Positions 4,634-28,894 of a DNA stretch of 64,000 bases are shown in pieces. Below the pieces are notes generated by a model. It searched no databases, was not told where the DNA came from, and saw only the letters and a program-made list of their open reading frames with translations. Origin of the DNA: Azolla caroliniana (Eukaryota; Plantae; Polypodiophyta); NCBI GenBank assembly GCA_043228905.1, contig JBHGNT010000004.1, positions 22,506,001 through 22,570,000 on the forward strand. Reading direction: 5' to 3'. The translations under genes and the position numbers were made by a program. Position 1 is the first letter of the stretch. Each line of letters begins with the position of its first letter.

Positions 4634-6533
4634 AAGATGGCATTAGAGGGGCTTAATATTAGCTATAATCATGTTCACGTGGATTGAGCTTCATATTGCT
4701 CCACAAACAAGGACGATTCCGTGAGAGGTGGGTGTGCCATCGAGATTGGCAAAGACATGGGCAGCCCTTTCGTCCTCATTCATACCAAAAACCAAGATGA
4801 TGATGGTCACGTCCATCGAACAGGTTACTATGTCTCTTAATTTGTTCTCAGATTTTGACATTCGAAAGCCGATTCGATGAAGATATTGTGTTATCTTCGA
4901 GTGCCAAGCACATGGTGCTTACTTAAGGCCATAGAGTGGCTTCTTAAGTCAACAAACTGCTTTCGGATGGATGCTCAATTCGAAGCTAGGTGGTTGTACC
5001 ATGTACACCTCTTCTAATTCGCCTTGAAGAAAGGCGTTCTTTATGTCCACTTGATGGAGGTGTCACCCTTTTGTCGCCGCAAGTGCAATTTCGGTCCGCA
5101 TAGTTGTCATCTTTCCCATTGGGGCAAAAGTCTCTTCATAGTCGACTCCATGTGTTTGTGCGCATCCTTTCACTACGAGTCGAGCTTTGTAGCGGTTGAT
5201 GGAGCCGTCAACATTATACTTCACCTTGTAAATCCATCTGCAGCCGATTGCCTTCTTGTGTGGTGAGTGGGGAATGAGATCCCATGTCTTGTTCTTGCAT
5301 AGTCCCGCATCTCCTCGTTCATTGCTTTGACCCATCGTGAATCCTTGGCTGCTTTGAAAAAACTTTCTGATTCTCGAACTGTTGTCACCTTCATCATAAA
5401 GGCATAGTGGTATGCCATATAATCATTGTAGCTAAATCGGCTAACAGGATTCTTCTCACGGGTGGAGCGACGAAGTTTTTCATTTGTCGTGGCAATGGCA
5501 ATGGCTTTCTTTACGCTAGGTGTCCTCATGATAGGTACGCCGAAACCACCAAATTCATTGTCGGGGGAGTGAGTCGATTTGTTGTTGTCGTAGTGATCAT
5601 CTTCATATTCCAGCATTTTTGCCTTGCCTTTGTCCACTTCAAACTAGGCTGAGATGTGCTTTGTTCGCTCGGGGGCTCTCGTGGCCCACTAAGCCTTGTC
5701 GTAATCGGGCTTTCTTTGAACATGTGTTCGAGTCAATCTCCATCTTTTGTCTCTTGTTCGGCACATTTCAGGTCGACCAAAAATTATTCAGGAGGAGTTG
5801 GCTCGAGTTCTTACCATGATGTTGATTCGTCGAAGACCACATCTCAACTCACATGAACCTTTCGAGTCAAGGGGTTATACCACTTGTTCCCCTTTTGCTC
5901 CAGTGAGTATCCTACAAGGATACATTTCTCTGACTTCGAATCAAGCTTTTGTCGTTTCTCGTCAGGGATGTGCATGTATGCAATGGAGCTGAATATCCGA
6001 ACATGTGATAGATCTGGCTTCTTTCCAAAAAATGTTTCATGCGGGGTAACCTCATGCACGTCGAATGTTGTGCACCGGTTCATTAGGTAGACGGTTGTGT
6101 TGGCGGCTTCTGCCCAGTACGACTTCAGCATGTGCTTCTCGTTAAGCATGGCTCGTGCTACTTCGAGGATGTGCCAATTCTTTCATTTGGCTACTCTATT
6201 CTATTGTGGCGTATGTCTCATCGAATTCCTTCTTTCCGAAGAAAAGCCAAGAATTCGTCAAAGAAGTACAGTTTTCCTCCATCAGACCGAAGACATCGTA
6301 CATGTCGACTTGTTTCCTTTTCAACTCCACTCTTGAATTTTTTGAAGTGTTTGAATACTTCTCTCTTTTGCCACATGGGGTAGATCCAAGCGTGCCTCGA
6401 GAAGTCGTTGATAAAGGTCACGTAGTATTGACATCCGCCGAATGTAGCCATCTGAGTCGGTCCCCATACATCGGAATGAATTACATCCAATATGCCTTTA
6501 CTCACGTTCCTCTCCTTCGGAAACGGGTGCCGA

Positions 6534-7280
6534 TGTCGTGAAGATTTTCGGCAACGGTGTGAAAATTGTGTGCAACGAACGAAATCGAGAAGGTGCAATG
6601 TGCACGTGTGAAAGGGGTGAAGGCCACACACATATGCTAGCATGTTGTAAATAGGACTGAAATGAGAATCGTAAAAGGAAAGGTAGATGTAAAGTTAAAC
6701 ATGACTACATCCTAGTAACATTTAAGTGCATACACAAGGGTGGAAGCAAGGCTTAAACCTTGCACCTCCAAGATAGGAGACAAATTAACTTACCACTAAA
6801 GCCACTACTAAGTGCTTTAGAATTTGTATATTTTCTTTTCATATTCAGTCTTTTGTAGGAAGCAAACATATAGAAACCGGGGGCACAAAACCATGGTTTT
6901 AGCCCGTGGTTTTAGCCCGTGGTTTCGGCTCGTGGTTTTAACCCATGGTTTTAGCCCTTGGGTTTAGCCCATGGTTTTTGCATGAAGAGACCTATAAAAG
7001 CCTATAGTTGGGCTTGTGTAAGGGGGGCAAGTGATGTAAATAAAAAAAAGAAACTTTTAATCAAAGATCGGAGTTATCCTAATGGTGATGTATCTCGTCT
7101 CGTAAAACTAAAGGCAAGGGTTCAATCTCTATCTTAATCTCTCTCTCTCTCTCTCTCTCTTCATCCATCTATCTATCTTCAATACTTTCTCGCTTACGCT
7201 ACTAAAAACATCGAATCCTTTCGGTCCAGGACCCTGGTGGTCCCGCTTCATTTCGCGAACACGCGATGATTTCCTCGACA
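6534..7280 (+). repeat. Gypsy LTR at the left end of block A (747 bp), with a 13-bp tandem array at 6891-6980
   Basis: TGTCGTG...CCTCGACA termini, TATA-like CTATAAAAG at about 6992, and the U5 motif GGTCCAGGACCC..GTGGTCCCGC shared with other LTRs. Confidence 0.75.
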
Positions 7281-7938
7281 TCTTACTTTCTTTTCTTTAG
7301 CAATCCATATAAAGGCTCGGCGACATGAGTGTAGTGCGGAATCCAAATATGATAAAACACGCATGCTCCAAGGAACCTTCGAGCCTCCGTTTGGTTTACG
7401 CATTCTTCTTTCATATCCTAGATTGCGTTCACATTGGATGGCGAAGGCTTCCGGCCGTATGCTCAGCACAAGTGACCTACCACCAAGATCTCTAGTTGCC
7501 CAAATGCAGATTTTTCTCTCGAAAATGTCAAATTCGCATCTTCGAGCCTTTGGAGCACCTTCTCACAATCTCTCATATGATCCGAGACGAACTTTCTACA
7601 CCCTTCCTTATCTTTCGATTCATCTTTCGATTCATCCGAACATCCTTTTATCGGAATATCATCCAAGAATGGCATCGTGATGTTCGGGATGCAATCCTTC
7701 AAGACCTTGTTCATGGCATTCACCATATGAGGCACCGAGTTCGTTGCACCTTGAGCTAAGGTACACATCCGCACGAGCCCGATTGGAGTCCTCATGGTTG
7801 TAATGTCACAATTGTCAATCGCCAACTGGAATTGGTCGTATCCAAAGTAGAGATCACCAATGGAGTAGATGGACCGCCCCGCAAACGCTTCGGCAAATTC
7901 GTCCATGCTAGGACCGATTCCAGCATTCCAAATTGTCA
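7281..7938 (-). pseudogene. Inverted gypsy reverse-transcriptase fragment
   Basis: ORF 7463-7939(-): GDLYFGYDQF...PFLDDIPIKG, homologous to the RT of elements B and C. Confidence 0.85.
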
Positions 7939-10262
7939 CCCAATCCTCGAGATGATCTCAGGATGTGCGACACCAGATCTAGCTATGTTAAGGTGGATCG
8001 CCTATATCAAGTCTTTAAACCCAGAGATCCGCCATATTGCAAGGAAGAAGAACGTCATGGCTGACATGCTGTCGAGGGCAAGATTTGAGAATGAAAGTGA
8101 CATGGTTTCGGAAGGTGAAGACGTCACCCTCAACTTCTTAAAGATGGCCTGACTATCGGCGGAAGACAAGGACACGCTAACCCTCCACACCTTCAATGAG
8201 GACGAGTACGAAGGAGAGTGGTTACTGATCGGCATATTCTTAAGAACAATGACGGTGGATGTTTCATTGACGAAGGCGGAGGCTCTACGAATTCATAAGA
8301 AAGCTTAACAATACTTCTTGAGGGGAGGATTCCTTTGGCGACACCCAAAAAGAAGGACAGGAGTGCCACGTCAGGTGGTGGTAAAGAAAGCAAAGCAAGT
8401 GACTCTGATGACCAAATTCCACGAGAGTCCTTGGGCAAGTCATAGAGGAACATGAGCGACATTCGAAAAGTTGAAGGAGAAGTAATGGTGGCCAAGCATG
8501 TACAAAAATGTACTCCATTTCGTGTCCACATGCAAAACTTGCCAAATACATTCGAATATACATCATCGTGATGAGCTACGGCCGACATACCTGCTCACCA
8601 TACACTTCAAATGGATGGTGGATCTGATCTCGATGCCAATTTGAGTGGGACAAATGAAGTACTTAGCTCTAGCAAGAGAAGACTTGACAAATCAAGTAGA
8701 AGGACGGGCCTTAACAAATAAGACGACGTCAACAATTTGCAAATTTCTACTCAAAGAGGTTGTCTGCCGATATGGATGTGTGGGAAAGATAGTGGCCGAC
8801 CGAGGGGAGTTGGATGCACACGAAGCAACGGAGCTCTTCGAACAACTAGGTGTGAAGCTCTCCCTCTCGACTGCCTACAATCCAGAAGCGAATGGGAAGA
8901 TCGAGCGAGGGCATGGACCAATCGTCAAAGCCATCGTACGAGCATGCAACGGTGTCGTAGTGTGAATCACACACTACGTGAAATATGTAAAATACTATAT
9001 CCGATTTAAAGTACGTATAATAAATAAAATAAAATATTAAAAAAATATTTATTACGTGCATAGGGCAAGATTCAAACCTTGTACCTAAGTAAGTCGTGCA
9101 TTTTTAGAGTGCATGGATACTTTATTTATAAGGAAAATGTAAACCAATAAAATATTACTCATGCACATCTAGCGAGCATGAGCACTATATTTAGGAAATA
9201 AAAGCATAGTGTAAAAAGCAACTCATGCACATTTAGTGTGCATGAACACTTTAGAAAAAGCATAGAGTCTATCTATAGAAAAATCATGGATTGTTAAGAC
9301 TCTCTCATCACTATATAAGGATGAGGAGCACAATGTAATAAGTGTGTGAAATATTTGGGAAATTGGATATATTTCCTAAAACACCAATTAATAAAATATA
9401 TTCGTGGGATTCACGAAGTTTTATATAATCTATCTCTCCCAATCTATGATCAATTGTAATTAGGATTCTAAATAGTAATAAATCTAATAATCTATACTTG
9501 TGGGATTCACAAGTTTCTATATCGCGTTCGTGTAATCTACTCATAACTAGACTCGTCTCAAATTCTTCCTCCTCCTAGTCCAAAACCAAAGTGGTTCCCA
9601 CCCGACTCATGCAACGATCTAGCGCCGAAAGGCACGACAACGGTCGAGTCGGGAATTGGCCACAATTATTGCCCCATGCCTTGTGGGCCGACAGAACTAC
9701 ACATAGTTCAATGACAAGGTATATGCCAAGGGAGCTTATGTATGAACAAAAGCCGGTAATGCCCATCGAAAGGACGATTGCCTCATGGGTAGTGATACCA
9801 TGGGAGAACGAGATGAGCCGAGAAGAATTATTAGCGGCATGGATAAGGCAACTTGAAAGGAGACCTGAAGATCTAGAAAAAGCACGAAAGATAGTGGAGG
9901 TAGCCTGAGTGAAAAACAAAATTTGGTTCGACAAGACGCATCAATTGCGTCCCAAGAAGATCGAAGCAAGAGATTGGGTATTGGTCTACGACAACAGCCT
10001 TGACAATCAACACAATACAACAAGAAAGTTCGCAAGATGGTTCCGACCGTATGTAGTGATAAGTGCCAATAAAAATGCCACATACCACCTTGCGGAGCTA
10101 GATGGATCAAGGTTGGCTATACCCATTGCGGGAAAAAGAGTAAAGATTTTCAAGAAAAGGCAAGACGAGGATCCTGACCTCGATCACCTCGACAATGAAG
10201 ATAGTAGGACAAAACCTACAAACTTGAGTTATGTACACGAGGACGTGAAGGAATCCGATTGA
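7939..10262 (+). pseudogene. Gypsy RNase H-integrase remnant of block A (many stops; split by a solo LTR)
   Basis: ADMLSRARF, DRGE, YNPEANGKIER and GPY-like motifs, colinear with the pol of element C. Confidence 0.85.
8953..9639 (+). mobile_element. Gypsy-type solo LTR (687 bp), TSD ACGG
   Basis: TGTCGTAG...GCACGACA flanked by perfect ACGG/ACGG. Removal restores integrase RACNGRVGNW. Confidence 0.9.
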
Positions 10263-10947
10263 TCACCGTAGCCGAAATCTCACACTCTCTCTCCTTGGCA
10301 CGTTGTCGTGAAGAAAACCGGCCATAGGCAGAATCGGAGAAAAAGGCGCGTGAACCGGCTCTTACACGGATGAACGCGTAACTTGATATTTTGTACCCGA
10401 TTCATAAACGGATTGATGGGTGAAAATACGAAGTGGCACGCATTTATCAGGGGATTGTGCGTATCTCTGTCAGACGGGGGGGCAGAGGGACAAGGAATAA
10501 AGGGAAGAGGACAAGAGAAAAGGAGATATCGTGCGTTGGGAGGAGAAGAGGTTGCTACAGAACGAAAGGCGGAGCTCTCTCTCTTCGTCTCGAATCGTCG
10601 CTCTCTACGGGTGTCGGGAGGTCACTGCCTCTGCTTCGTGGACAGCTCGTGTGCTTCCAGCAGGGTCGCTCCCTTTCCCCCCTCCTGTTTCTTTGAGTCG
10701 TGTGACTGTCGTCGGTGTGCGTGAGTAGGGTCCCCGTGTCGGGTCCATCGCCGCTTTGTCGGTTGTAACTGTCGGAGTTTGTAATCTATTGCCATAATAA
10801 TTAAGCGTTACGTTCTATATCTCTCTTTCTCGCTTCTACATGTCGGTGAATCTCTCTCTCTGTCTCTCTCTCTCTCTCACTCCTCGGTCCAAGACCCCCG
10901 TGGTCCTGCCCCTTTCTACACGAACACGCGTAACAACGCGACATATT

Positions 10948-10964
10948 TGGTGAACCCGACGTGA
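10948..10964 (+). other. Primer-binding site, tRNA-Trp
   Basis: TGGTGAACCCGACGTGA is the reverse complement of the plant tRNA-Trp 3' end (TCACGTCGGGTTCACCA). Confidence 0.9.
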
Positions 10965-10987
10965 AAGGGCGGCAAAGGAGTTGAAAG

Positions 10988-13102
10988 ATGAGGGGATCGG
11001 AGCTAGCAGAGGCAATGGCGGTGGCCGTCGACCGGCTGGTGAGCGCTCGTGAGGGAACGGGTACCCTCGACAGAGCCATTGAATCGATCGTCGGCTCTAT
11101 AGGCCGTTTCGAAGGGAAAGACGCCACAAGTTATTTGGAGGCTTACCGGGCCGAAATGATCATGAGGGATATCCCGGTGGACAGGCGGCTGTCCGGATTC
11201 CCTCGGGTGGTGACGTTGGGCATCCATGCTGAGGTGCTAGAGGTGTTGGCCGGATGCCAGACTTGGGAGGAGTTCGAGCTGCAGCTCCTCGAGAAGTACG
11301 GGTTTGACGAGTCGCTCCGGCTGTCGAGGCGGGACTTCATGGCGTGGGTGCAAAGCCCCAGAAACGAGAGGAACATGTCGGTGCTCCTCCAGGAGTTCGA
11401 AAAACGGTTTGCGCGGCTGTCGACGTTGGACCGGACGGTGCTCGAAACAAGCCGAGTACTGCTGTTTGTCAAATCGGTGGATGCGCTCGACAGGAAAAGG
11501 TGGGTCCCCTATTGGAAACAGACGAAGGGCTCACAACGAACTGGGTTGTGATAAAACAGGTCTGCAGCCGTTTTGACAAACGGCGCGATTGGAGCGACGG
11601 AAGCACGTCGGGGTCGGGGCCGGTCCCAAGGAGGAGGCTCGAGGAGCCGGTTTCAGTGCCGACTGGGAGGAAGGAAGAGACCCGAATCTGGCCGGAGTCG
11701 GGGTCGGCATCGAACGACGTGGTCAGAGGCCCATCCAGAGGAGCAGCTCTGGAGGAGCTAACACGGATGGTGCGCGACCTGCAGATCGCACAGGCCCGGA
11801 GTGACAGCGGTGAACAACCTCGCGACCGGAGGCCGCCGGCTAGGCAGCGGTGCATGTGGTGTGACGCGATCGGTCACATTCAAAAGGACTGCGCGGATTT
11901 CGCCGACGCGCTCAGGACCAACGTGGTGTACCTCTGGAACGGGCGGGTGCACGCGAGCGAGACCCGGAGAGCCTTGGAACTGAATACGGGGCGCGGCGGA
12001 ATGAAGAGGTTGATGGAAGAGGCCGCGGCACGGCACGTCGAAGCCATTAACTACTCAGTGTCGGCGGGAATTCGGGTCGGGGGTGATGAGACCCGGAAGG
12101 CGAAGGACTCCGGATTCTAGTCGCTAGTGCTAGAAGGCCTCTCCGGAGTTCGGCTGAGGAAGGAAGAGGCGGACCGCGCGGAACAGCGGGTCCAGGAGGT
12201 CACCGGTTGGGACGATCCGGTCGAAGAGAAAACAGGCTTTGTAGAAGCCGCTTGCCGTGGAGGACAAATGGGCAGGAAAGGCCGGAGGGGTTGGGCCCCC
12301 GAGGTATGAGACCCGGTTCGGACCGAAACCGACCAGTGCCGGCAACCCAGGCGTGCCGGATGGGAAGAAGCAGGCGGGGTTTCGGTTGAGCACCGAAATC
12401 GAGAGAGCAACGGACCTACGGAAGGTCCTTGAAGAGTGAATCCTCGACAGTAAAGTGGAGTTGTCATTGCGGGAGGTGCTGGGAATCGCCAAGAGGGAGT
12501 TCCACGACTTTATCGTAGACTTGGTGAAGCGGAAGAGGCTCTCGACGAAGCCGAAACCGGAGAAGCCGGTGGAAGTGCGGACCACACACCTGGAAGACGG
12601 AGCCTCGGAAGATGACCTGGCGGGAACCCACTACACGAAGCCGCATTGGGCTAGGGCGACTATGGAAACCCCTGTACGGATCGGCAACGTTCTGGAACCG
12701 GTGGTGGCGTTGGTAGACCATGGATCCGAAATCAACCTGATGTCCATGGATTTCTACAAGAAGGGTAAATGGCCGATCAACACCAAGCATGGCTGGAAGA
12801 TACAGGCAGCGATGCGCGCCACGGAAGAACAACATGGGGCTTGTTCGAACGTACGGGTGAAAATCGGCGATGTCGAGATCGACCAACACTTCTTCGTGCA
12901 GGAGACGTCCTCGCATCCGGTTATACTAGGAGAGCCATATATCACAGCAGCACGGATGGAGACCAAGGTGTTGGACAACGGTTCAGCCTATGCAAGAGTC
13001 AAGAGCCAGGACGAGCGTCACTCGGTCAAGTTCCTAACGGTGCGACCAAACCACGAGCGTAACCGTGAGGCCCTCGGTAGCGAAACCCGAGGGGATTTTT
13101 AG
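10988..13102 (+). pseudogene. Element B gag-zinc knuckle-protease ORF (frameshifts and stops)
   Basis: CMWCDAIGHIQKDC knuckle and ALVDHGSEINLM protease; homologous to 19520-21645. Confidence 0.88.
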
Positions 13103-16100
13103 AGAGGGCTATCAAGGCGTGGGGCCGCGATTGTCCGAACTCCCGGGAACAACCCCACAAATGTACAGTACGGAAGAAGACTTGTACCATGGGTAGGAAG
13201 TTTTGGTTCTCCGATAACGGAGGTTGTACTATAACCGGCGTCAGTGGCCGGGAGAGGAAGCGAGCAGAGGAGCGGCTCAGGGGATGCGGAGTCCTCTTCC
13301 CCGACGAGGACATCAGCGGCACCGTGGAGGCGGTCTCTTTTAACGACACCTTGGGCGAACTACGAAAGGTAATCGGTGAAGACCTTAGGGAAGACTGGAC
13401 CGTTCCGGTAGGGTCAATGGGAATGTACGAAGTCATCGCAGACTTCGGGGAAAGGATCGGGTCGGATCGGACGGCCCGCGTGGATACGAAATACAAGACT
13501 GTGGACCAGTGTCATGAAGATCCGTTACTACGTGCGGATCGTGAGGCGGAACCGTCGGGGTTCTGGACCGGAAGGATTCAAAGTCGGTACAACCTTTGGC
13601 GCAAGCTTTAGCGAGAAAGTACTTAAGATAGATTGGGAAAGAGAGAAGTTGAGATTACACGATTGAGAGAGATTGATTGAACTTTTAACTTTAGATTTAA
13701 GAAACAAGTTACACCATCAATTTGATAACGAATTTCTTCTTCTTAATTTCATAACCCAAAAAAAAACGTGTTTTTTCTCCTCCCCCTTCCTTCTTTTATA
13801 GATGCTCTCATGCATATGATGCATGTGAGGGTACAAGACATGCATAAATTGCATGTTTGCCATTTGGCGCTTATGTATTACATGTGGTGCATGATAACCA
13901 TGTCACTCATTTTAGCTCTCATGTATGAGAATTTACATGTAAAAGTACAATGATAGAAATATAAATTCAACTAAATGGCATGGCTTAATGGTAAGCCAAT
14001 TGACTCCTAACTTGGAGGTGCAAGGTTTGAATCCTTACTTGCCCTCCTTGTATATGTATATATGTATATATTTTTATATATTTATTTATCTAGTCGTCGG
14101 ACGCCGGTTCGTCGGATGTCGTCGGTTACTGGTGCCTCGCCGGATGCCGTCGGTTACCTGTGCCTCGCCGGATGCCGTTGTCTCACCGGTGCCGGATACC
14201 GGTGCCGCTGCCGGATGCCGTCAATTACCGGTGCCTCGCCGGATGCCGTTGTCTCACCGGCGCCGGATCACCGGCTCCATCCCCGGTCCGGTTTTGGTTG
14301 GCCAAAACCCTTTACGAGTAGCTAGCCCACCTCCACTCTTAGTTCAAGTTACCTTGAACTCTCTATGCTCCACACATAAACACAAAGATAATATCTTTTG
14401 CTCTACCTTATATATGATAAGAACCGTATTTGTCGTGCCTATGTGGGATATCTCACAATTTTCTCTTTTCCTTTCACAAACTTTATACCCTCATATCTTG
14501 ACATTTAATTGTCCGTTTCTCGTGTAATAAAGTGCATTCGAAACCTCCATCATTTTGTACTTAGATATTAAATTTATTTAAAATGTTATCTTCACAATTA
14601 TTGTATTATGTGATTCATACTCGATTTCGTACGTTTTATGGGATTTTCACACTATTGCCGAAAATCTTCACGACACCGGAAGGTGAGGCCAGTCGCGACA
14701 CCCTTGCCGGAGGGCAGCGAGGAGTGGATAAAAGGGGTCGCGTTGGACCCAAGTTTACGAAATCCGGCTGGCATAGGGCACCGGTTCACCGACATAACGC
14801 TACGGGAGCTCAAGGTCGGTTGGGGCGGCTTCCTACTGCCGGCGGAGTAGGACCGGTTTCGGAGAATGCTCGGGAGGCACGGGATGGCTTTCGCATTCTC
14901 ACCGGAGGAGATCGAGTGCATAGACCCAACAATTGTCGAACCGATGGTGATCTTCACGGTACCGCATGTACTGTGGAATCTCAAGCCGATTCCGGTGCCA
15001 AGAGCTCACATCCCGAAGTTGATGGAGCTCCTAAAGCAAAAGGTGGAGATGGGCATCCTCGAACCGTCGAGTGCCCCGTATTCGAATCGATGGTTTACGG
15101 TGCCGAAGAAGAACGGCACGTTGCGCTTCATCCAGGACCTACAACCGGTCAAAAAGATGACCATCCGTAATGCAGGGATTGGACCAACCATAGACGAGTT
15201 CGCAGAGGCCTTCGCTGGAAGGTCGATCTATTTTGTCGGTGATCTGTACTCAGGGTACAATCAGTTCCAACTAGCCATGGAGAGTAGAGACATTACAACG
15301 ATGCGGACTCCTCTCGGCCTAGTGTGGATGTGTACCCTACCACAAGGAGGGACGAACTCAGTGGCTCACATGGTGAACGCGATGAACAAAGTGCTCAGGG
15401 ATTGTATCCCGGACATCACCATGCCATTCTTAGACGACATCCCGATCAAGGGATGCCCGGTGGAGAAAAGGGACGAGGCAATCAGGCCGGACGGATGTCG
15501 GAATTTCGTGGTGTCCCACATCGATGATTGCGAGAAGGTGCTGCAGAGACTAGAGAGCGCAAGGCTCACCTTCTCCAGGGAAAAATCGGCCTTCGAACAG
15601 TCGGAGATCTTGGTGGTTGGACACCTGTGCGGGCCTTACGGTAGGAAACCGTCTCCGGCAAAGGTAGAGGCCATCTCCGCGATGAGGAACGATTGCGGGT
15701 CGGTCACAGAGGTCCGCAGATTCTTGGGGGCATGCGCGTTCTACCACATCTAGATCCCGCACTACGCACATGTCGCGGAACCCCTCTACAGACTATTGAA
15801 AAAGGGGCGTAGCTTTGAGTGGAGGACGGAGCACACGGAGTCGGTTCGGAGACTAAAGGAGGCCCTTACGGCAGCGCCGGCTCTCCGTAAAGCAGTTTAC
15901 GGCAAGGATGTTCCCATCTGCGTAACGGTGGACACCAGCCCGACCGGGATCGGGTGGGTAATCAGTCAGGAGGACAAGGGCGGCGTACGATTCCCGATCC
16001 GGTTCAGGGCGAAGGTATTGAGCAAGCGGCAGCGAGGGTACGCCCATGTTAAGCGCGAACTTTGGGGTGTCGTTTCGGCAATCAAGGCCGACAAGGATTA

Positions 16101-17739: not shown

Positions 17740-18313
17740 GGCCGGTTTTCTTCGGTATCTACCTGTCTCTAGCGCATGCCGGTGGATGCGCGGTTTGGTG
17801 GGGGTGGATGTCGTGAAGAAAACCGGCCATAGGCGGAATCGGAGAGAAAGGCACGTGAACCGGCTCTTACACGGATGGACGTGTAACTTGATATTTTGTA
17901 CCCAATTCATAAACGGATTGGTGGGTGAAAATACGAAGTGGCACGCATTTATCAAGGGATTGTGCGTATCTCTGTCAGACGGGGGGGCAGAGGGACAAGG
18001 AATAAAGGGAAGAGGACAAGAGAAAAGGAGATATCGCGCGTTGGGAGGAGAAGAGGTTGCTGCAGAACGGTGTCGTGAAGAAAACCGTCCACAAGCGGAA
18101 TCGGTGCACCGGAGCGTAGGAACCGGCTCTTCATGCACGTGCGCCTTACGTTGTACATAGGAGATCCTAGGCATGTAGATTCGGTAGGTAAGAAGTAAAG
18201 GGGAAACGGCTCCTTCCTGGCCTATAAAAGGAGGGAGACGAGGAGGAGGAAGGGATCGCGGAGAGTCGAGGACGAAGTGTTGTCGGTTTGTGGGCGAAGG
18301 CTTCTCTCTTTCT

Positions 18314-19091: not shown

Positions 19092-19519
19092 TTTCTCTGG
19101 CTCACAAACTCCGTGGCTGCTTTCTGTGCAGGTTTTCGGGAGGCTCGCGCTGCTCTGAGGAATGCCCGAGTGCTTCCGGCAGCACCTCCAACCTACTCTT
19201 CTCCTTCTGTGCGTTTATGAACAGGCATCGGCATCTGTTCGCCGGCCTGTTCGGTTGTAACCGACTTCGTGTTTTTGTTGTTTGTCTTTGTTAATACATA
19301 CATACATTCGTGTCTTTCTGTGTCGCTGTCCCACTTGCGTCTTTGCGTCGAAGGGCCGTGTCCCTGTGGATCTACGCTCGCACGTAGAGGGTCTCTTCTC
19401 CTTCCTCTCTTGCTCTTCGGTACAAGACCCCCGAGGTCCCGCCTCATTCCACGCATCCGCGAGGAATACCTCGACATCGTGGTGAACCCGACGTGAAGGA
19501 GGCGGCAGAAGAGCAGAAG

Positions 19520-21645
19520 ATGAAAGGGTCGGATCTTGCAGAGGCCATGGCTTCGGCCGTGGATTGGATATTGAGTGCACGCGAGGGCACCGGCGCCCTC
19601 GACAGAGCCATTGAGGCGGTTGTCGGTACGATCGGCCAGTTCAGCGGAAAGGATGCCACGAAGTATTTGGCGTCCTACGGGGCAGAAATGTTGATGCGGG
19701 ACATTCCGGAAGAGAGGCGTCTTGCCGGGTTTCCTCGAGTGGCGATGTCGACCATCCATGCGGAGGTGCTCGAGGTGCGGGCGGAGAGCCGTACCTGGGA
19801 GGAGTTTGGAGGCCGACTCCTAGAAAAATACGGGCTGGACGACACGCTCCGGCTTTCGAACCAGGACTTCATGGAATGGGTGGAGTCCCCCGGCAAGGGA
19901 AGAAATGTGTCGGCACTCCTCCGGGAGTTCGAAGAACGCTTTGCGCGCCTTTCGGCGCTTGACCGAACCGTTCTGGATACGAGCCGGGTCCTACTGTTCG
20001 TCAAGTCGGTGGACGAGCGGGACAGGGATCAAGTCGGCTCCTTGCTGGAAACCGAAGACGGGCTGACAACCGACTGGGCTGCGGTTAAGAGAGTCTGTGG
20101 CCGTTTCGACAAACGGCGAGAATGGGCTGACAACGGGGCGGCCGGTGCGGGCTCTGTCACAGCAAGGAGGCTTGAACCGGCACCGCAAGTGCGAAGGGAA
20201 GAAACCCGGGAATGGCTCGAAACCGGTTCGGCTTTGACCGGCATGGTCAATGGCTCGTCCGGAGGAGCAGCGCTGGAGGAGTTGACGCGGGCGATAAAGG
20301 ATCTCCAGATCGCCCAGACTCGAAGGGAAGGCGGCGAACCGGCTCGTGACCGACGGCCGGCAGCGGGGAACAGGTGCATGTGGTGCGACGAGGTCGGCCA
20401 CATTCGGAAGGACTGCGGCGATTTCGTAGAGGCGTTGAGGAACCGGGTGGTGTACCTGTGGGAAGGCCGGGTGCACGCCGGCGACACCAGGAGGGCCCTG
20501 AACCGAAACGACGGGCGAGGAGGAATGAAGAGACTGATGGAAGAGGCAGCGGCCCGACACGTGGAGGCCATCCACTACTCGGCGTCGGCCGGCATTCGGG
20601 TCAGGGGCAGCGAGGCCCGAAAGGAGGGCAAAGACGGATTCTGGTCGGCAATGCTGGAAGGTCTTGCCGGCGCACGGCTAAGGAAAGATGAAACGGACCG
20701 CGCTGAGAGACGGGTCCGGGAAATAACCGGGTGAGCGATCCGGTCGAGGAGAAGACGGGCTTTGTAGAAGCCGCCTGCCGGAACTACGAGGCTCTGGTTG
20801 AAGACAAACGGGTGGGGAAAGTCGGAGCGGTCGGGCCCTCACAACGGTACGAGACCCGATTCGGGCAACAACGGAACGATGTCGGTGGGTCCAGCCCGCA
20901 AGATAACCCCAGGAAGGGCGGATACCGACTGGGGACGGAAATAGAAAGGACTACGGACCTACGAAAGGTCCTAGAAGAACGGATCCTCAACAGCAAAGTG
21001 GAGCTGTCATTGCGAGAGGTGCTAGGGATCGCCAAGAAGGAGTTCCACGACTCCATTGTGGACCTGGTGAAACGGAAGAGGCTGTCGACGGAGACGGAAC
21101 CGGAAAGACCGGTGGAGGTGCGAACGACGCACATCGACGACATGGCGCTGGAAGATGAGTGGGCGGAGAGCCACTATTCAAAGCCGCACTAGGCCCGAGC
21201 GACCACGGAGACCCCGGTGAAGATCGGAGATGTTCAGGAACCGGTGGTGGCATTGGTGGACCACGGTTCGGAAATAAACCTGATGTCCATGCACTTCTAT
21301 AAGAAGGGAAAGTGGCCAATCAACACCAAGCACGGGTGGAAGATACGGGCGGCGATGCGCGCCACCGAGGAACTGCACGGGGCCTGCCCGAACGTGCGAG
21401 TCAAGATTGGCGACGTCGAGATTGACCAGCACTTCTTCATACAGGAGACGTCCTCGCACCCGGTCATATTAGGGGGACCATACATCACGGCGGCGCGAAT
21501 GGAGACCAAGGTGCTGGACAACGGTTCAGCCTACGCAAGGGTCAAAAGCCAAGACGGACGCCATTCGGTCCAATTTCTGACGGTGCGGCCGAACCACGAG
21601 CAAAACCGCGAATCCCTCGGTGGTGAGAACCGGGAGGATTTTTAG
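19520..21645 (+). pseudogene. Element C gag-knuckle-protease ORF, single frame with two premature stops (20732 TGA, 21190 TAG)
   Basis: ATG at 19520; CMWCDEVGHIRKDC; ALVDHGSEINLM. Both stops are TGG in element B. Confidence 0.9.
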
Positions 21646-24600
21646 AGAGGGCTGCCAAGGCGTGGGGACGAGATAGCCCGGACACTCGGGAAAGACCCCA
21701 CAACTGTACGATAGAACCGAAACCGAAGAAACCTTGTGCGATAGGTAGAAAATTCTGCTTCTCCAACAACGGAGGGTGTATGATAGCCGGCATCGTTGGC
21801 CGAGAAAGGGCAAGGGCGAAGGAGCGACTTCGAGCGTGCGGAGTTCTCGGCCCGGACGAGGAAATCAGCGGGGCCGTGGAGGCGGTCTCCTTCGACGACA
21901 CCTTGGGGATGCTGAGGAAGGTAGCAGGAGAAGACCTTAATGAAGACCAGACGATACCGGTATGTTCCGAGGAGATGTACGGAGTCATCGCGGACTTCAG
22001 TCAGGGGCTCGGGTCGGATCGGACAGCCCGGGTTAGCACGAAGTACAAGACTGTGGACCGGAAGGTAAGGCCAGTCGCGGCACCCTTACCGGAGGGCAGC
22101 AAGTCCCGAATTAGAGGGGTTGCGTCGGACCCCAGTTTACGAGATCCGGCCTACATAGGACACACCTTCACCGACGGGACGCTCCGGGAGCTCAAGATCA
22201 GTGGGGGCGGGTTCCTACTACCGGCGCAGGAAGACCGGTTTCGGAGAATGCTCGGAAGGCACGGGAAAGCCTTCGCGTTCTCGCCGGAAGAGATTGGGTG
22301 CTTAGACCCGATGATCGTGGAGCCGATGGTGATATTCACGGTACCGCATGTGCCGTGGAATCTCAAGCCGATTCCAGTACCAAGAGCTCACATCCCGGAG
22401 TTGATGGAGCTACTGAGGCATAAAGTCGATATGGGTATTCTCGAACCGTCGAGCGCGCCATACTCGAACCGATGGTTTACCGTACCAAAGAAAAACGGAA
22501 CATTGCGCTTCATTCAGGACCTGCAGCCGGTCAACAGAGTGACCATTCGGAACGCAGGAATCGGACCGACCATAGACGAGTTCGCGGAGGCCTTCGCCGG
22601 AAGGTCGATTTACTCGGTCGGTGATCTGTACTCGGGGTATGACCAGTTCCAGCTAGCCGTGGAGAGCAGAGACATTACGACGATGCGGACTCCCCTCAGC
22701 CTACTGCGAATGTGTACCCTGCCACAAGGAGGGACCAACTCGGTGGCCCACATGGTGAATGCAATGAACAAGGTACTGAGGGATTGCATCTCGGACATCA
22801 CCATGCCGTTTCTAGATGACATCCCGATCAAGGGGTGCCCGATGGAAGAGAAGAATGAGACAGTCGGGCCGGACGGATGCCGGCGATTCGTGGCAACACA
22901 CATCGACGACTGCGAGAAGGTGCTACAAAGGCTAGAGGATGCGAGGCTCACCTTCTCGGGGGAGAAATCGGCCTTCGGGCAATCAGAAATTCTGGTGGTC
23001 GGACACCTATGTGGACCATATGGCCGGAAGCCGTCTCCGACAAAGGTAGAAGCCATCTCCGCGATGAAGACCGACTATAGCTCGGTTACGGAAGTTCGGA
23101 GGTTCTTGGGGGCATGCGCATTCTACCACATATGGATCCCGCATTACGCCCACGTTGCGGAGCCGCTATACGGGTTGCTGAAGAAAGGGCGAAAATTCGA
23201 GTGGCGAGACGAGCACACGGAGTCGGTCCGGAAGCTGAAGGAAGCTCTTGCGGCAGCACCGGCGCTCTGGAAGGCTGTATACGAGAAGGGTACCCCGGTA
23301 TACATAACGGTGGATACGAGTCCGACCGGGGTCGGATGGGTCGTCAACCAAGAAGACAGGGACGGCATTCGGTTCCTAATCCGATTCGGCACGAAGGTCC
23401 TCAGTGAGCGACAGCGAGGGTACGCCCAGGTTAAACGCGAACTCTGGGGTATCGTTTCGGCAGTAAAGGCCGACAAAGACTACCTGATCGGGACGGAAGT
23501 GATTATCAAGACGGATTGCCTGCCAATTCTCGGCATGGTTTCCGGATGCGCGACACCGAACCTGGCGATGCTCAGGTGGATAGAGTACATCAAGTCCCTG
23601 GATCCGGAAATACGGCACATTTCCAGAAAGGACAACGCCATGGCCGACATGCTTTCGAGGGCGAGGTTTGATGACGAGGGCAACATGGTTTCGGAGGACG
23701 AAGAAGTCGGCGTGGACTTCTTTGAGGCGGCGTACGTGACGACCGATGGGACGAGCACTCCGGCACTTAACGACTTCGACGAGAGCAAGTACGACGGCGA
23801 GTGGCTACAGATCGGTGGGTTTTTGAGGACAATGACGCCGGATGCGTCATGGACGAGGGACGAGGCCAACCGGATCCGGAAGAAAGCATACCGATTCTTT
23901 CTCCGGGACGGATACTTATGGAAGCACCCGAAGAAGAGGAACGACGTCCCGCTCTGGGTGGTGGCGATGAAGGAAGAACAGGAGGAGCTGCTGACGGCCT
24001 ACCACGACAGCCCTTGGGCTGGTCACCGAGGAACGTGGGCCACGTTCGAGAAGATAAAGGGGAAGTACTGGTGGTCGGAACTGTACCGGGACGTGCATCG
24101 GTTCGTGACAACTTGCGAGAGCTGCCAGATGCACTCCGTAGTCCGACATCAGGACGAGCTTCACCCTACGTACCCTCCGACCATCCACTTCAAATGGATG
24201 GTAGATCTGGTGACGATGCCGATGGGAGTAGGACAGATGCGGTATCTGGTCCTGGCTCGGGAAGATCTGACGAACCAGGTGGAAGGTCGAGCCCTTCAGA
24301 ACAAAACAACCGCGGCCATATGTCGGTTCCTAATTGAGGACGTGATATGCCGGTACGGGTGCGTCGGGAAGATCGTGGCTGATCGCGGGGAGTTGGACGC
24401 CGAAGAGGCCGAGGAGCTGTTCGACCGGCTAGGAGTCAAGCTCTCGCTTACCACTGCGTACAATCCGGAGGCGAATGGGAAGGTGGAGCGCGGACACGGA
24501 CCGATCGTCAAGGCGTTAGTTCGGGCATGCGAAGGACAAGTCGGGAACTGGCCACGGCTGTTGCCTTACGCGTTGTGGGCGGACCGAACTACGCACAGTT

Positions 24601-25139
24601 CGGTAACCGGATTCATGCCGGCAGAGCTCATGTTTGGGCAGAAGCCGATCATGCCAATGGAACGTACGATCTCCTCATGGGCAACCGTGGACTGGAGAGA
24701 CGAGATGAGCCGGGAGGAACTGTTGACGGCGCGCATACGGCAGCTCGAGCGAAGACCGGAGGACGTGGAGCAGGCTGCGGAAAAGCTTCGGGTGGCAAGG
24801 ACGAGGAACAAAGCCCGGTTCGACCGAACGCACCGGCTCCGACCGAAGAAGATCGAGGAAGGCGACTGGGTGCTAATCTACGACAGCAGCCTCGACAACC
24901 AGCACCGAGCGACACGGAAGTTCGCAAGAAGGTGGTTCGGGCCTTACGTGGTACAAAGCGCCAATGACAACGGGACGTACCATCTGGCGGAACTCGACGG
25001 CACGAGAATGGCGATACCGGTAGCTGGGAAGCGGGTCAAAGCGTTCAAGAAGCGTCACGACGACGAGCCGGATCCGGATAACCTGGACCGAGACGACGAA
25101 CGATCTGAAACCGAAGAAGAACCGACGGGCGGGGAATAA
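21642..25139 (+). CDS. Element C pol (RT-RNase H-integrase), open -1 frame; first ATG at 21780
   Basis: 1119-aa ORF with PFLDD (RT), VDTS...RE...TDC...ADMLSR (RH), the HHCC and D-D-E integrase motifs, and FGPY. No chromodomain. The frame is open back to 21642. Confidence 0.93.
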   Translation, partial: LERAAKAWGRDSPDTRERPHNCTIEPKPKKPCAIGRKFCFSNNGGCMIAGIVGRERARAKERLRACGVLGPDEEISGAVEAVSFDDTLGMLRKVAGEDLNEDQTIPVCSEEMYGVIADFSQGLGSDRTARVSTKYKTVDRKVRPVAAPLPEGSKSRIRGVASDPSLRDPAYIGHTFTDGTLRELKISGGGFLLPAQEDRFRRMLGRHGKAFAFSPEEIGCLDPMIVEPMVIFTVPHVPWNLKPIPVPRAHIPELMELLRHKVDMGILEPSSAPYSNRWFTVPKKNGTLRFIQDLQPVNRVTIRNAGIGPTIDEFAEAFAGRSIYSVGDLYSGYDQFQLAVESRDITTMRTPLSLLRMCTLPQGGTNSVAHMVNAMNKVLRDCISDITMPFLDDIPIKGCPMEEKNETVGPDGCRRFVATHIDDCEKVLQRLEDARLTFSGEKSAFGQSEILVVGHLCGPYGRKPSPTKVEAISAMKTDYSSVTEVRRFLGACAFYHIWIPHYAHVAEPLYGLLKKGRKFEWRDEHTESVRKLKEALAAAPALWKAVYEKGTPVYITVDTSPTGVGWVVNQEDRDGIRFLIRFGTKVLSERQRGYAQVKRELWGIVSAVKADKDYLIGTEVIIKTDCLPILGMVSGCATPNLAMLRWIEYIKSLDPEIRHISRKDNAMADMLSRARFDDEGNMVSEDEEVGVDFFEAAYVTTDGTSTPALNDFDESKYDGEWLQIGGFLRTMTPDASWTRDEANRIRKKAYRFFLRDGYLWKHPKKRNDVPLWVVAMKEEQEELLTAYHDSPWAGHRGTWATFEKIKGKYWWSELYRDVHRFVTTCESCQMHSVVRHQDELHPTYPPTIHFKWMVDLVTMPMGVGQMRYLVLAREDLTNQVEGRALQNKTTAAICRFLIEDVICRYGCVGKIVADRGELDAEEAEELFDRLGVKLSLTTAYNPEANGKVERGHGPIVKALVRACEGQVGNWPRLLPYALWADRTTHSSVTGFMPAELMFGQKPIMPMERTISSWATVDWRDEMSREELLTARIRQLERRPEDVEQAAEKLRVARTRNKARFDRTHRLRPKKIEEGDWVLIYDSSLDNQHRATRKFARRWFGPYVVQSANDNGTYHLAELDGTRMAIPVAGKRVKAFKKRHDDEPDPDNLDRDDERSETEEEPTGGE

Positions 25140-26240
25140 AGGCTGGACCGGTTTTCTCTGGCTCAACTCAATTTGGCGCATGCCGGTGGATGCGCGGTTA
25201 GGTGGGGGCGGATGTCGTGAAGAAAATCGTCCACAAGCGGAATCGGTGCACCGGAGCGTAGGAACCGGCTCTTCATGCACGTGCGCCTTACGTTGTACAT
25301 AGGAGATCCTAGGCAGGTAGATTCGATAGGTAAGAAGTAAAGGGGAAACGGCTCCTTCCTGGCCTATAAAAGGAGGGAGATGAGGAGGAGGAAGGGATCG
25401 CGGAGAGTCGAGGACGAAGTGTTGTCGGTTTGTGGGCGAAGGCTTCTCTCTCTCTCTGGCTCGCAAACTCCGTGGCTGCTTTCTGTGCAGGTTTTCGGGA
25501 GGCTCGCGCTGCTCTGAGGAATGCCCGAGTGCTTCCGGCAGCACCTCCAACCTACTCTTCTCCTTCTGTGCGTTTACGAACAGGCATCGGCATCTGTTCG
25601 CCGGCCTGTTCAGTTGTAACCGACTTCGTGTTTTTGTTGTTTGTCTTTGTTAATACATACATACATTCGTGTCTTTCTGTGTCGCTGTCCCACTTGCGTC
25701 TTTGCGTCGAAGGGCCGTGTCCCTGTGGATCTACGCTCACACGTAGAGGGTCTCTTCTCCTTCCTCTCTTGCTCTTCGGTACAGGACCCCAGAGGTCCCG
25801 CCTCATTCCACGCATCCGCGAGGAATACCTCAACAACGGAAGGCAGAGCTCTCTCTCTTCGTCTCGAATTGTCGCTCTCTACGGGTGTCGGGAGGTCGTT
25901 GCCTCTGCTTCGTGGACAGCCCGTGTGCTTCCAGTAGGGTCGCTCCCTTTGCCCCCTCCTGTTTCTTTGAGTCGTGTGATTGTCGTCGGTGTGCGTGAGT
26001 AGGGTCCCCATGTCGGGTCCATCGCTGCTTTGTCAGTTGTAACTGTCGGAGTTTGTAATCTATTGCCATAATAATTAACCGTTACATTCTATATCTCTCT
26101 TTCTCGCTTCTACGTGTCGGTGAATCTCTCTCTCTCTCTCGCTCCTCGGTCCAAGACCCCCGTGGTCCCGCCCCTTTCTACACGAACGCGCGTAACAACG
26201 CGACAACGTACCAGAGGACGTGGGGTTTGGTGGGGGTGGA

Positions 26241-27278
26241 TGTCGTAAAGATTTTCGCCAACGGTGTGAAAATTGCATGGAATGTACAAAATCGAGTGTG
26301 ATTCTTCACACACAATATGGAATAATAATAATGAAGATATTATATTATATCTTGGTACGAAAAGATTGATGTCTTCAAGAGCTTCCAAATGCATTTTACT
26401 ACATGTGAAATGGACAAATGAGTGTCGAGTTATGTGAGTGTAAAGTTTGAGAAGAAGAAGAGAAAAACAAAATTGTGAGATATCCCACATAGATAGGACA
26501 AGTTAGGCTCCCACAGTATATAACTAGAGCCAGAAGTTATTACTTTTTGTCTATGTGTGGAGCACAGAATGTTCTTGGAGTAAATTGTGGCTTAACTACT
26601 CGTAATGGTTTTGGCAGAGCCGAATCCGAAATCGGAACGGACGAACCGGATCACCGGGTCGGAAGCGGACCAGATAGACGGATCGATCGTATAGGTTGAT
26701 CGCGATGATTTCGGTGTGAAATGAACAAAATCATCTAAACTAAAAAACCTATTAGAAATTTGTAATCAAAGGGATGCAAGCAAGACTTGAACCTTGCACC
26801 TCCAAGATAGGAGGCAATGAACTTACCACTAAGCCAAGACATTTCTTTAGAAATGTTTTTACTATCATGTTAGAGCTTGATTGAGTGACATGGTTATCAT
26901 GCATCACATGTAATGCATGAGCGCCAAATGGCAAACCTCACATGCATCATATGCATGGGGGCATCTATAAAAGAGTGGATGAAAAAGATCAAAGGGAGCT
27001 ATGTATGAATTATGAAATTAAGAGAAGAAAATTCGTTATCTAATTGATGATATATCTTGTTCTTCAAATCTAAAATCAAGAGTTCAATCTTAATCTCTCT
27101 TTCCATTTCAATCGTTCTCAATTTGTTTCAAATTTGGAATCTTAATCTCAATCTCTCTCTCTCTCAATCCATCTAAAATCATTTCTTGTTAAAGCTAGTG
27201 CAAACTTCGAGTCATTCTGACCCAGAACATCGGCGGTTCCGCCTCACGATCCGCGCGTAGTGAACGATCTTCACGACA
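26241..27278 (+). repeat. Gypsy 3' LTR of block A (1038 bp)
   Basis: Directly follows the PPT; TGTCGTA...CACGACA termini; colinear with the reverse complement of 13510-14675. Confidence 0.88.
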
Positions 27279-28894
27279 CTGATGTTGCTTGCCAAATTGG
27301 CAAGCTACACATACACCTTCAATCTCTTTCTCTTTGAAGGTCGGGAGTCCGATGACAACTCCTTTTGATTGCATTGCCTTGAGCTTTTGGAGGTTGATGT
27401 GGCCAATCCGGTTGTGCCACAACTCTATGTCGGTGTCAACTTTGGTGCCTTTTTCATCTTGTACGAGTTGAGAATGAACATTCGGCCCTCTCTTCGTCCA
27501 CGAGTGACGAGTAGACCTTCTTTCCCAATGAAGCAATCGCCTTGATTAAATCGAATTTGCATCCCTTGGTTAACAATTTGGCCAACGGAGACCAAATTCT
27601 TAGTAATGGTTGGTACATGCAAGACATTCTTAATGTAAGTTTGGTTACCTTCTTTTTCGAATGGAACATTGCCGATGTGTCGAAACAGATGAGTAGTGTC
27701 GTCTCCAGTTTCAACATAGTCGGGTCGGTCTAGCTCTCGAAGTTCTCAGGACCATTCTTGATGAGGCGTCATATGGTTCGAGGCACCGGAGTCGACGAAC
27801 CATACGTCTTCCAAACTAGAGGCACTATTCAAAGTAGAAGCCAACATAGAATTTGCTCTATGTCTCATCACGAACATTCCACCATGATCGTCATAGTCAG
27901 AGTTGGTGGCGTAATTGGTAAGTTGTCAGCTTGTGGAAGCCGACTCACGCTTCTTCTTTTGGCACTCTTCTTCGTGCTAGCCGATTTTGCCGCAATATCC
28001 ATATTTGATCGAGGTTTGTCAGCTCGGACCGGAATGGTGGCTCCCCCTTATTCTGAACATTCATCGATTGTTTCCATTTTCTTACCGAAATTGCAAGTTG
28101 TTTTCATAAATCGGGCCTCATCTGCCTTGTCCTTGGCCGAATCAGCCTCTTCTTGCACGACCGCATCCTCTTCCTCTGTTTGAGTGTGAGTAAAGCATGT
28201 GGCCTTCGGAGGCGTTGCTCCTTGTTCGAACATGGTTTTCTTCGACCAACAACATGGATTGAAGATTGAAGAAAGAGGGAGGATTCTCTCATGCTAGTAT
28301 GATGATCCTCATCGCGCCGAACTATGGTGCAAGGTCGCCGAGGCATATTTGCACCATCTCATCATCCTCCACATTGACGTTTATCGAGCCAAGCGAATCA
28401 CAAAGCTCCTTGATCTTCAAGGTGTAGCATGTGATGGACATATGTCTTTGTTGGATATTGTTCAACTCTTGGCGGAGTTGAAGCTTTCTTGCGGTTGTGT
28501 TGGCCGCGAAAATCTTCCGTAGATTCCCCCATGCTTCTTTCAACATCTCGGCTGCTCGAATGTAGCCGAGCATGTGGTCATGAACACATGTCGCCAAGCA
28601 ATACATCACTCAGCTTGCCGCTTGCTCCCATGTTGAGTAATCAGCGTCTTTTGGGTCAGGTCGATTTTCTTGTGCTCCTTTGATGTAGCTCCAATATCCT
28701 TGACTGACAAGGTATTGGTGCATCTTGTACTCCCAAGATGCAAAGTTGTTCCTATCTAGCTTCTCGTTAGGGATAGCGCTCCCCATTTGAGTATTCATTG
28801 TCGATGAAGATTTATTTCTTCTTTTCTTTTCCTTCTCTCTCGAACACGAGCTATGTAGTCGCACTACGATAATGATGAGTTGGTTCTTCTTGAA

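What the first reader, a model, noticed from the sequence alone, without database searches (positions are those of the whole stretch)
6530..27282. All five gypsy insertions have 4-bp target duplications centred on CpG: a candidate CpG-targeting integrase
Seen: TSDs are CCGA/CTGA (6530, 27279), ACGG (8949, 9640), ACGT (10300, 26206), CCAG/CCGG (13506, 14676) and ACGG (18067, 25836). The consensus is (A/C)CGN, across five distinct LTR types. The two mismatches are the transitions expected from CpG deamination. The copia solo LTR in the same nest has an ordinary 5-bp TTTCT TSD. Established: most plant LTR elements make 5-bp TSDs with weak preference, and heterochromatin targeting is usually attributed to chromodomains, which this integrase lacks. 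Inference: the integrase reads CpG, possibly methyl-CpG, at the centre of the cut. Host DNA here is AT-rich and CpG-poor while the elements are CpG-rich, so this would steer insertions into other TEs and away from genes. Caveat: n=5 and the targets are GC-rich.
Basis: partly seen in the sequence, partly recalled or inferred. Interest (0 to 1): 0.85.

Follow-up and report, generated by a model that had tools for sequence, protein, structure and literature searches.

The report
CpG-targeting retrotransposons of known Phygy type
These nested plant jumping genes insert almost only at CG pairs, a habit already published for the moss Phygy lineage to which they likely belong; whether their integrase senses methylation of the CG is untested.

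Summary
All five 4-bp target duplications are at the stated places and centre on CG; two have a CpG-type transition in one copy. It is not chance: in sister families from public contigs, 65 of 76 independent 5' junctions centre on CG, 10 on CA/TG and 0 on TA, against 3.6% background. The motif is a palindrome, VCGB with ACGT best, not (A/C)CGN. The CA/TG share fits later decay (13% versus 11% in the LTRs), so specificity is near-absolute.

The preference is already in print. Neumann et al. 2019 report 4-bp NCGN duplications for Phygy, a chromodomain-less gypsy clade of Physcomitrella. The window's elements match Phygy in duplication, likely tRNA-Trp primer site and domains, and their protease is 59-69% identical to P. 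patens proteins. No labelled Phygy sequence could be compared.

The likely mechanism is direct CG readout by a symmetric integrase complex at a kinked 4-bp site. Methyl-CpG reading could not be tested (about 12%). This scan earlier noted NCGN duplications in a fungal genome (e1-10582392).

The parts
6530..6533 (+). Left target duplication of outer insertion A (CCGA)
   Evidence: splits a copia-type frame in register with 27279-27282
6534..7280 (+). 5' LTR of A; not followed by a primer-binding site; only patchy 67-86% similarity to A's 3' LTR
7292..10299 (+). Deleted internal part of A: inverted RT fragment 7292-7939, then integrase 7932-10193 interrupted by B
8949..9643 (+). Solo LTR B (8953-9639) with ACGG duplication
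   Evidence: empty sites (joints skipping 691) and B-type LTRs followed by the same primer site in related runs
10300..26209 (+). Element C (10304-26205; about 6.96 kb without nested D and E) with ACGT duplication; LTRs 95.5% identical, 16 of 28 mismatches are CpG transitions
   Evidence: empty-site contigs
10948..10965 (+). Primer-binding site of C, identical to that of D; read as tRNA-Trp from recall
   Evidence: tRNA identity not confirmed (searches found nothing)
13506..14679 (-). Solo LTR E (13510-14675, minus strand) with CCAG/CCGG duplication
18067..25839 (+). Element D (18071-25835; about 6.98 kb without the nested insert) with ACGG duplication; LTRs 98.2% identical, 6 of 11 mismatches are CpG transitions
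18309..19096 (+). Unrelated 778-bp TG...CA insert (18314-19091) with 5-bp TTTCT duplication, inside D's 5' LTR; superfamily not tested
19480..19497 (+). Primer-binding site of D
19388..21645 (+). gag (DUF4100-like) and protease region of D, broken into three frames
21627..25139 (+). Open pol frame of D, 1170 aa: RT, RNase H, integrase; no archaeal-type RNase H and no chromodomain
23904..25136 (+). Integrase of D: H2C2 zinc finger, DDE core, SH3-like GPY/F domain, short disordered acidic tail
25196..25212 (+). Polypurine tract of D (similar tracts precede 17809 and 26241)
26241..27282 (+). 3' LTR of A (26241-27278) and right duplication CTGA
6221..6532 (-). Integrase-core piece of the copia-type element into which the whole nest is inserted
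   Evidence: Pfam rve E 4e-4, below cut-off
27279..27446 (-). GAG-pre-integrase piece of the same copia-type element
   Evidence: PF13976 E 1.4e-14

Best explanation
These are families of a chromodomain-less Ty3/gypsy lineage, likely the Phygy clade, whose insertions make 4-bp duplications centred on CG, likely because the integrase reads the CG base pairs directly. Shown: the target motif is a palindrome, VCGB with ACGT best, with C enriched one base outside; TA centres are absent; CA/TG centres occur at the rate of later CpG decay. Inferred from foamy-virus integrase: a two-fold symmetric complex cuts 4 bp apart and kinks the DNA at the central pyrimidine-purine step, and this lineage has narrowed that step to CG by base contacts. 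Candidate readers are the conserved Gln-His and Lys/Arg residues of the C-terminal loop (Q333, H334, R338, K339 of the integrase), with E163 at the Ala188-equivalent position possibly setting the flanking bases; these residue roles are untested. Methylated CpG is likely tolerated rather than required. Nesting in young CG-rich transposons is likely a by-product of CpG density.
For: Window: 5 of 5 CG-centred. Sister families: 65 of 76 unique 5' junctions CG, 7 CA, 3 TG, 1 AG, 0 TA; flank background 3.6%; non-family chance hits 3 of 24. 3' junctions 12 of 14 CG, read by eye. ACGT 24 observed against 3.6 expected; TCGN or NCGA 2 of 65 against 58% expected; C at -5 in 35 of 76 against 19%. CpG decay in the LTR starts 29 of 269 versus 10 of 75 at the duplication, p = 0.46. 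In two runs of the organism that best holds the window, 33 and 25 different flanks before an LTR start have a majority ending ACGT. Phygy traits: 4-bp NCGN, tRNA-Trp primer, no extra domain. The gag query finds 16 P. patens, 18 Adiantum and 3 Riccia proteins among 68 hits; protease 59-69% identical to 9 of the 16 P. patens proteins; a P. patens query returns the same Riccia polyproteins that are the top named relatives of D's Pol. The integrase model's best matches are foamy-virus and Ty3 integrases. 4-bp integrases prefer a central YR step and avoid T at the first position (PMC4422553), as seen here.
Against: No REXdb-labelled Phygy sequence could be compared (the FASTA supplement was too large), and no P. 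patens RT or integrase was compared. Elements C and D (about 7.0 kb) are shorter than the published Phygy range of 7.66-9.97 kb. The tRNA-Trp reading is recalled (blank). The 76 junctions come from sister families at most 80-86% identical to the window, in one series of related assemblies, not from this genome. The search pattern favours young copies. Of 7 contigs with both LTR ends, only 2 give identical 4-mers, 1 differs by a CpG transition and 4 disagree, which I attribute to short-read mis-joins without having tested it. The window's CCGA site is of a class seen in 0 of 65 junctions. No base contact was modelled with DNA.
Confidence: 0.8

Rival explanations
1. The integrase prefers or requires 5-methyl-CpG at the centre of the cut and so is steered to silenced DNA without a chromodomain.
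For: Target CpGs decay at about the same rate as LTR CpGs, and other copies of the site that C entered show a decayed form in 18 to 48 contigs per run, so such sites do become methylated. Many flanks are CpG-depleted (10th percentile observed/expected 0.35), as long-methylated DNA is. All five window targets lie in transposons. Cytosine methylation created strong integration sites for an alpha-retrovirus in vitro (review PMC11054761, passage; the original paper was not held).
Against: Decay shows methylation at some time, not at the moment of insertion. No methyl-binding domain was found in the integrase by Pfam or fold search. CG-centred preferences exist for Drosophila ZAM-group elements (CGCG), in a genome with almost no CpG methylation (my recall). 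Flank CpG density is close to that expected from equal use of any CpG.
Confidence: 0.12
2. The preference is indirect readout only: the integrase selects bendable pyrimidine-purine steps, and CG dominates because of DNA shape.
For: 4-bp integrases select central YR steps (PMC4422553), and 75 of 76 centres here are YR.
Against: TA, a YR step common in these 43%-GC flanks, is used 0 of 76 times. CA/TG make up 14% of flank dinucleotides against 3.6% for CG, yet are used 10 times against 65, and those 10 fit later decay. Retroviral YR enrichment is only about 63% over background.
Confidence: 0.06
3. Chance: five insertions into GC-rich elements happen to centre on CG.
For: n = 5 in the window; the nest has 7.5-8.6% CpG.
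Against: Joint chance about 2e-6 to 5e-6; 62 of 73 in the first objective set, binomial p about 1e-77; published NCGN preference in 186 Phygy elements.
Confidence: 0.01

Closest known systems
Phygy clade, non-chromovirus Ty3/gypsy of Physcomitrella patens (Neumann et al. 2019, PMC6317226; passages, section 9 and supplement 5 read)
   Same: 4-bp NCGN duplication, no chromodomain, no archaeal-type RNase H, likely tRNA-Trp primer site, gag and protease closely related to P. patens proteins.
   Different: Different host (probably a non-seed plant; other notes say fern, not tested here); elements about 7.0 kb versus 7.66-9.97 kb; motif refined here to palindromic VCGB/ACGT with near-absolute CG use. 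The passages I read give no mechanism.
Ginger1 DNA transposons (Bao et al. 2010, PMC2836005; passages read)
   Same: Gypsy-type integrase with GPY/F motif, 4-bp CG-centred duplication (CCGG 75%, CCGT/ACGG 24%), TGT termini.
   Different: DNA transposons with terminal inverted repeats, in animals; CCGG favoured, whereas ACGT is favoured here.
Drosophila ZAM-subgroup errantiviruses (review PMC5408687; passages read)
   Same: Ty3/gypsy integrase with a palindromic CG-containing 4-bp target (CGCG).
   Different: Insect lineage; alternating CGCG with a GC centre; host with little CpG methylation (recalled).
Prototype foamy virus intasome (Serrao et al. 2015, PMC4422553; passages and section 14 read)
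   Same: Best structural match of the integrase model; 4-bp duplication, central YR kink, T avoided at the first position.
   Different: Only a weak preference; a small neutral residue (Ala188) where this lineage has a conserved Glu (62 of 64 sequences).
TatI and Selgy clades of Selaginella (PMC6317226 supplement 5)
   Same: 4-bp duplications; TatI also uses tRNA-Trp.
   Different: TatI carries an archaeal-type RNase H, absent here; Selgy uses tRNA-Ala and is about 5 kb; no NCGN motif reported for either.

Membership tests
Phygy (REXdb) | Ty3/gypsy domain order PROT-RT-RH-INT | tested here: met
Phygy (REXdb) | 4-bp target duplication with NCGN motif | tested here: met
   5 of 5 in the window; 65 of 76 CG-centred in sister families
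Phygy (REXdb) | No chromodomain or other extra domain | tested here: met
   No Chromo or RVT_3 hit in Pol or among the precomputed domains of the 120 listed relatives; model ends in an SH3-like domain and a disordered tail
Phygy (REXdb) | tRNA-Trp primer-binding site (81% of elements) | tested here: inconclusive
   An 18-nt TGG-initiated site is shared by C, D, B-type LTRs and sister families; its match to tRNA-Trp is recalled, and searches found no reference
Phygy (REXdb) | Phylogenetic placement with the P. patens non-chromovirus clade on RT, RH and INT | tested here: inconclusive
   No labelled reference readable. Gag and protease are close to 16 P. patens proteins (59-69% protease identity in 9), with reciprocal Riccia hits; no tree was built
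Phygy (REXdb) | Length 7.66-9.97 kb (descriptive, from one species) | tested here: not met
   About 6.96 and 6.98 kb without nested inserts; the paper treats size as a weak classifier
Chromoviruses (including Tcn1) | Chromodomain at the integrase C-terminus; mostly 5-bp duplication | tested here: not met
Tat clade (TatI-III, Ogre, Retand) | Additional archaeal-type RNase H | tested here: not met
Selgy | tRNA-Ala primer site, 4.4-6.7 kb | tested here: inconclusive
   Primer site read as Trp from recall; elements are about 7.0 kb
Methyl-CpG-reading integrase (hypothetical) | Preference for methylated over unmethylated CpG at the time of insertion | not testable with these tools
   No methylome, host genome or biochemistry available

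The most novel reading that the evidence does not exclude
Phygy-type integrases read 5-methyl-CpG directly at the centre of the cut, which gives a chromodomain-free route to silenced DNA. The trait is shared across moss, liverwort and fern families and possibly fungal relatives, making it a natural methylation-sensing integrase.
Probability: 0.12. Interest if true: 0.75.

Novelty: new member of a known kind. Interest (0 to 1): 0.25.

Why it matters
The core claim, an NCGN target preference, is already published for Phygy, so this is a confirmation in further families. What is added is modest: the preference is near-absolute (75 of 76 CG or decayed CG), palindromic and extends beyond the duplication; it holds outside Physcomitrella; and candidate residues are named. 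That makes it an unusually strict system for testing how a gypsy integrase reads target sequence and whether cytosine methylation matters, in moss or liverwort models with methylation mutants. If methyl-CpG were read, it would be a new way for a retrotransposon to find heterochromatin.

Tried and rejected
Of the 122 matches: 76 unique family 5' junctions, 1 duplicate dropped (L115 = L101), 21 preceded by the polypurine tract (3' LTR starts, excluded) and 24 non-family chance hits. The objective 70% similarity filter first gave 62 of 73; I added L064, L100 and L112 by eye as family members (all CG) and moved L070 to the 3' LTR class, giving 65 of 76. One search did not list flank consensus rows for the B-type LTR, so B has no independent logo. 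Searches for a reference tRNA gene matching the primer site found nothing in viral or prokaryote contigs or in papers. The REXdb element table and FASTA were too large to read and may bear on membership and on the exact Phygy logo. The P. patens RLG2 transcript supplement (PMC7466625) is cut and showed no primer-site match, so I could not link RLG2 or RLG3 to Phygy. Copies with decayed duplications were not more decayed in their LTR starts (0 of 12 versus 24 of 188 sites, p = 0.37): too few to inform. A Pfam scan of the two longest open frames in 69 of 76 flanks found retroelement-type domains in 12, a DNA-methylase domain in 1 and no other host domain; with 3 of 73 same-lineage flanks that is about 15 recognisable transposon targets, but no genome background exists to call it enrichment. 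The Atlas search of the integrase gave fungal and animal gypsy clusters at 0.94-0.97: a lead only. Literature searches: NCGN + retrotransposon gave 2 papers, Phygy 18, Phygy + fern 3, and a five-term search including 'methylated CpG' gave 38, of which 25 were listed. In those listings and the passages read I saw no test of methylation dependence for Phygy; most subscription papers are not searchable.
Full report
OBSERVATION. Self-comparison gives the nest. Outer element A (6534-27278) contains solo LTR B (8953-9639) and element C (10304-26205). C contains inverted solo LTR E (13510-14675) and, in its 3' LTR, element D (18071-25835). D's 5' LTR holds an unrelated 778-bp insert with a 5-bp TTTCT duplication; whether it is copia was not tested. 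LTR pairs are 98.2% (D) and 95.5% (C) identical, with 6 of 11 and 16 of 28 mismatches being CpG transitions, so CpGs in these elements are methylated and decay.

A's two LTRs are not a matched pair (patches of 67-86%). Its duplication is still real: on the minus strand the right flank ends a GAG-pre-integrase domain (E 1.4e-14) and the left flank begins an integrase core (E 4e-4, below cut-off) in register. The whole nest therefore sits in one copia-type element. That CG was the original state there is inferred from the direction of CpG decay. Empty sites confirm the 4-bp length for B (joints skipping 691 bases) and for C (35, 31 and 45 contigs in three runs). The chance of five CG centres at local rates is about 2e-6 to 5e-6.

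TEST ON INDEPENDENT INSERTIONS. No host genome is held. With an objective filter on the sequence beyond the pattern, 62 of 73 unique 5' junctions had CG at the centre of the four preceding bases, against 3.6% CpG in the flanks (binomial p about 1e-77). Adding three family members missed by the filter gives 65 of 76 CG, 7 CA, 3 TG, 1 AG and 0 TA; the 24 non-family chance hits give 3 CG. No two flanks are near-duplicates. At 3' ends, 12 of 14 junctions are CG-centred (two ends adjusted by one base by eye, and one 4-mer is shared with the 5' set).

The motif is a palindrome. In the 73-junction set the first position is A47 C11 G14 T1 and the last is A1 C10 G15 T47. ACGT was seen 24 times against 3.6 expected, TCGN or NCGA 2 of 65 against 58%, and C one base outside in 35 of 76 against 19%. 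CpG sites in the LTR starts of these copies have decayed in 29 of 269 cases (10.8%), not different from 10 of 75 at the duplication (p = 0.46), so nearly all targets were probably CG when used.

Limits of this set: the contigs are sister families (80-86% at best) from one series of assemblies. Of 7 contigs with both LTR ends, 2 give identical 4-mers, 1 differs by a CpG transition and 4 disagree, probably through mis-joined short-read assembly (not tested). Closer to the window, in two runs of the organism that best holds it (0.53 and 0.45 of its words), 33 and 25 different flanks before the LTR start at 26241 have a position-wise majority ending in ACGT, at overall agreement of only 0.40 and 0.42. 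The other two runs listed no such row.

WHAT THE ELEMENTS ARE. D has an open 1170-aa Pol with RT, RNase H and integrase, no chromodomain and no archaeal-type RNase H. Its top named relatives are Riccia sorocarpa polyproteins (63% over the region searched). Its gag region finds 16 Physcomitrium patens, 18 Adiantum nelumboides and 3 Riccia proteins among 68 hits. Its protease is 59-69% identical to 9 of the 16 P. patens proteins. A P. patens query returns the same Riccia polyproteins (9 of 9 hits). C and D share an 18-nt primer-binding site, also seen after B-type LTRs; I read it as tRNA-Trp from recall, and could not confirm this.

COMPARISON WITH WHAT IS KNOWN. Neumann et al. [quoted passage not shown] They list 186 Phygy elements with 4-bp NCGN duplications (100%), tRNA-Trp primer (81%), no extra domain and 7.66-9.97 kb, and describe Phygy as the P. 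patens-specific non-chromovirus clade. The window's elements meet these traits except length (about 7.0 kb). Formal placement was not possible because the reference FASTA could not be read. Jedlicka et al. 2019 (PMC6911290, passages) also report 4-bp duplications for Phygy and frequent nesting of Phygy into Tcn1. Phygy is named in a liverwort genome paper (PMC12885004, passages). CG-centred 4-bp targets are also known for Ginger1 DNA transposons (CCGG 75%, CCGT/ACGG 24%; PMC2836005, passages) and Drosophila ZAM-group elements (CGCG; PMC5408687, passages).

MECHANISM. Shown: 4-bp stagger, palindromic VCGB motif, no TA centres, and no chromodomain or methyl-binding domain in Pfam or in a model (mean pLDDT 80.9) whose best matches are foamy-virus and Ty3 integrases. 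Established for retroviruses (PMC4422553; passages and section 14): 4-bp integrases kink the target at a central YR step, avoid T at the first position, and make base contacts through Ala188 and the C-terminal Arg329 of foamy-virus integrase. Inferred: this lineage has narrowed YR to CG by direct contacts. In 64 aligned relatives the Ala188-equivalent position is Glu in 62, and the C-terminal loop holds conserved Q333 (57), H334 (57), R/K338 (56) and K339 (62). That this loop corresponds to the Arg329 loop is my recall, and no DNA complex was modelled. Shape alone is unlikely, because TA is never used and CA/TG only at the decay rate.

METHYLATION AND STEERING. Target CpGs do get methylated: they decay, and other copies of C's empty site show the decayed form (38, 48 and 18 contigs). 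This does not show the state at insertion. A precedent for methylation-enhanced integration exists for an alpha-retrovirus in vitro (PMC11054761, passage; original not held). Against a requirement: a CG-containing preference also occurs in flies, and flank CpG density (median 3.3%, n = 71) is near the 2.9% expected if each CpG in host-like DNA were an equal target, compared with 1.7% for unweighted host tiles (baseline taken from this window, a different host). About 15 of 76 flanks are recognisably transposon (12 of 69 by Pfam; 3 of 73 by DNA similarity) and none clearly a host gene, but there is no background to compare with. Steering toward CG-rich young elements is plausible as a passive effect of CpG density; avoidance of genes is not shown.

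VERDICT. A real and strong feature, but a known one: new families, likely of Phygy, with a sharper motif than published. Interest 0.25. The methyl-CpG reading remains open at about 12% and would deserve 0.75 if true.

Noticed in passing
window 6534-7280 and 26241-27278: The two LTRs of outer element A belong to different LTR types (the 3' one resembles solo LTR E), the 5' LTR lacks a primer site and is followed by an inverted RT fragment, yet the ends share a true target duplication inside one copia frame. This suggests template switching between families or later replacement of the interior.
   Followed up: partly
L107:247-546: An LTR end, one ACGT and a new LTR start lie back to back: possibly a second insertion into the duplication left by the first, or a tandem element.
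   Followed up: no
window 23904-25136 (integrase residue 163): The clade has a conserved D-R-G-E motif, with Glu (62 of 64) where retroviral integrases have a small neutral target-contacting residue.
   Followed up: partly
window 18781-19050: 54-bp tandem repeat (about 4-5 copies) inside the TTTCT-flanked insert.
   Followed up: no
window 30959-32200 and 52891-54163: A MULE transposase frame (Pfam E 8e-25) and KH-domain gene exons on the minus strand.
   Followed up: no
L082:1-300: An insertion flank encodes an N6/N4 DNA methylase-like domain (PF01555, E 2.5e-7).
   Followed up: no
P0001 residues 760-1150: The nearest Atlas clusters of the integrase include fungal ones (Basidiomycota 0.97, Mucoromycota 0.96, few members with taxa), a lead that the fungal NCGN elements of e1-10582392 may be related.
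   Followed up: no
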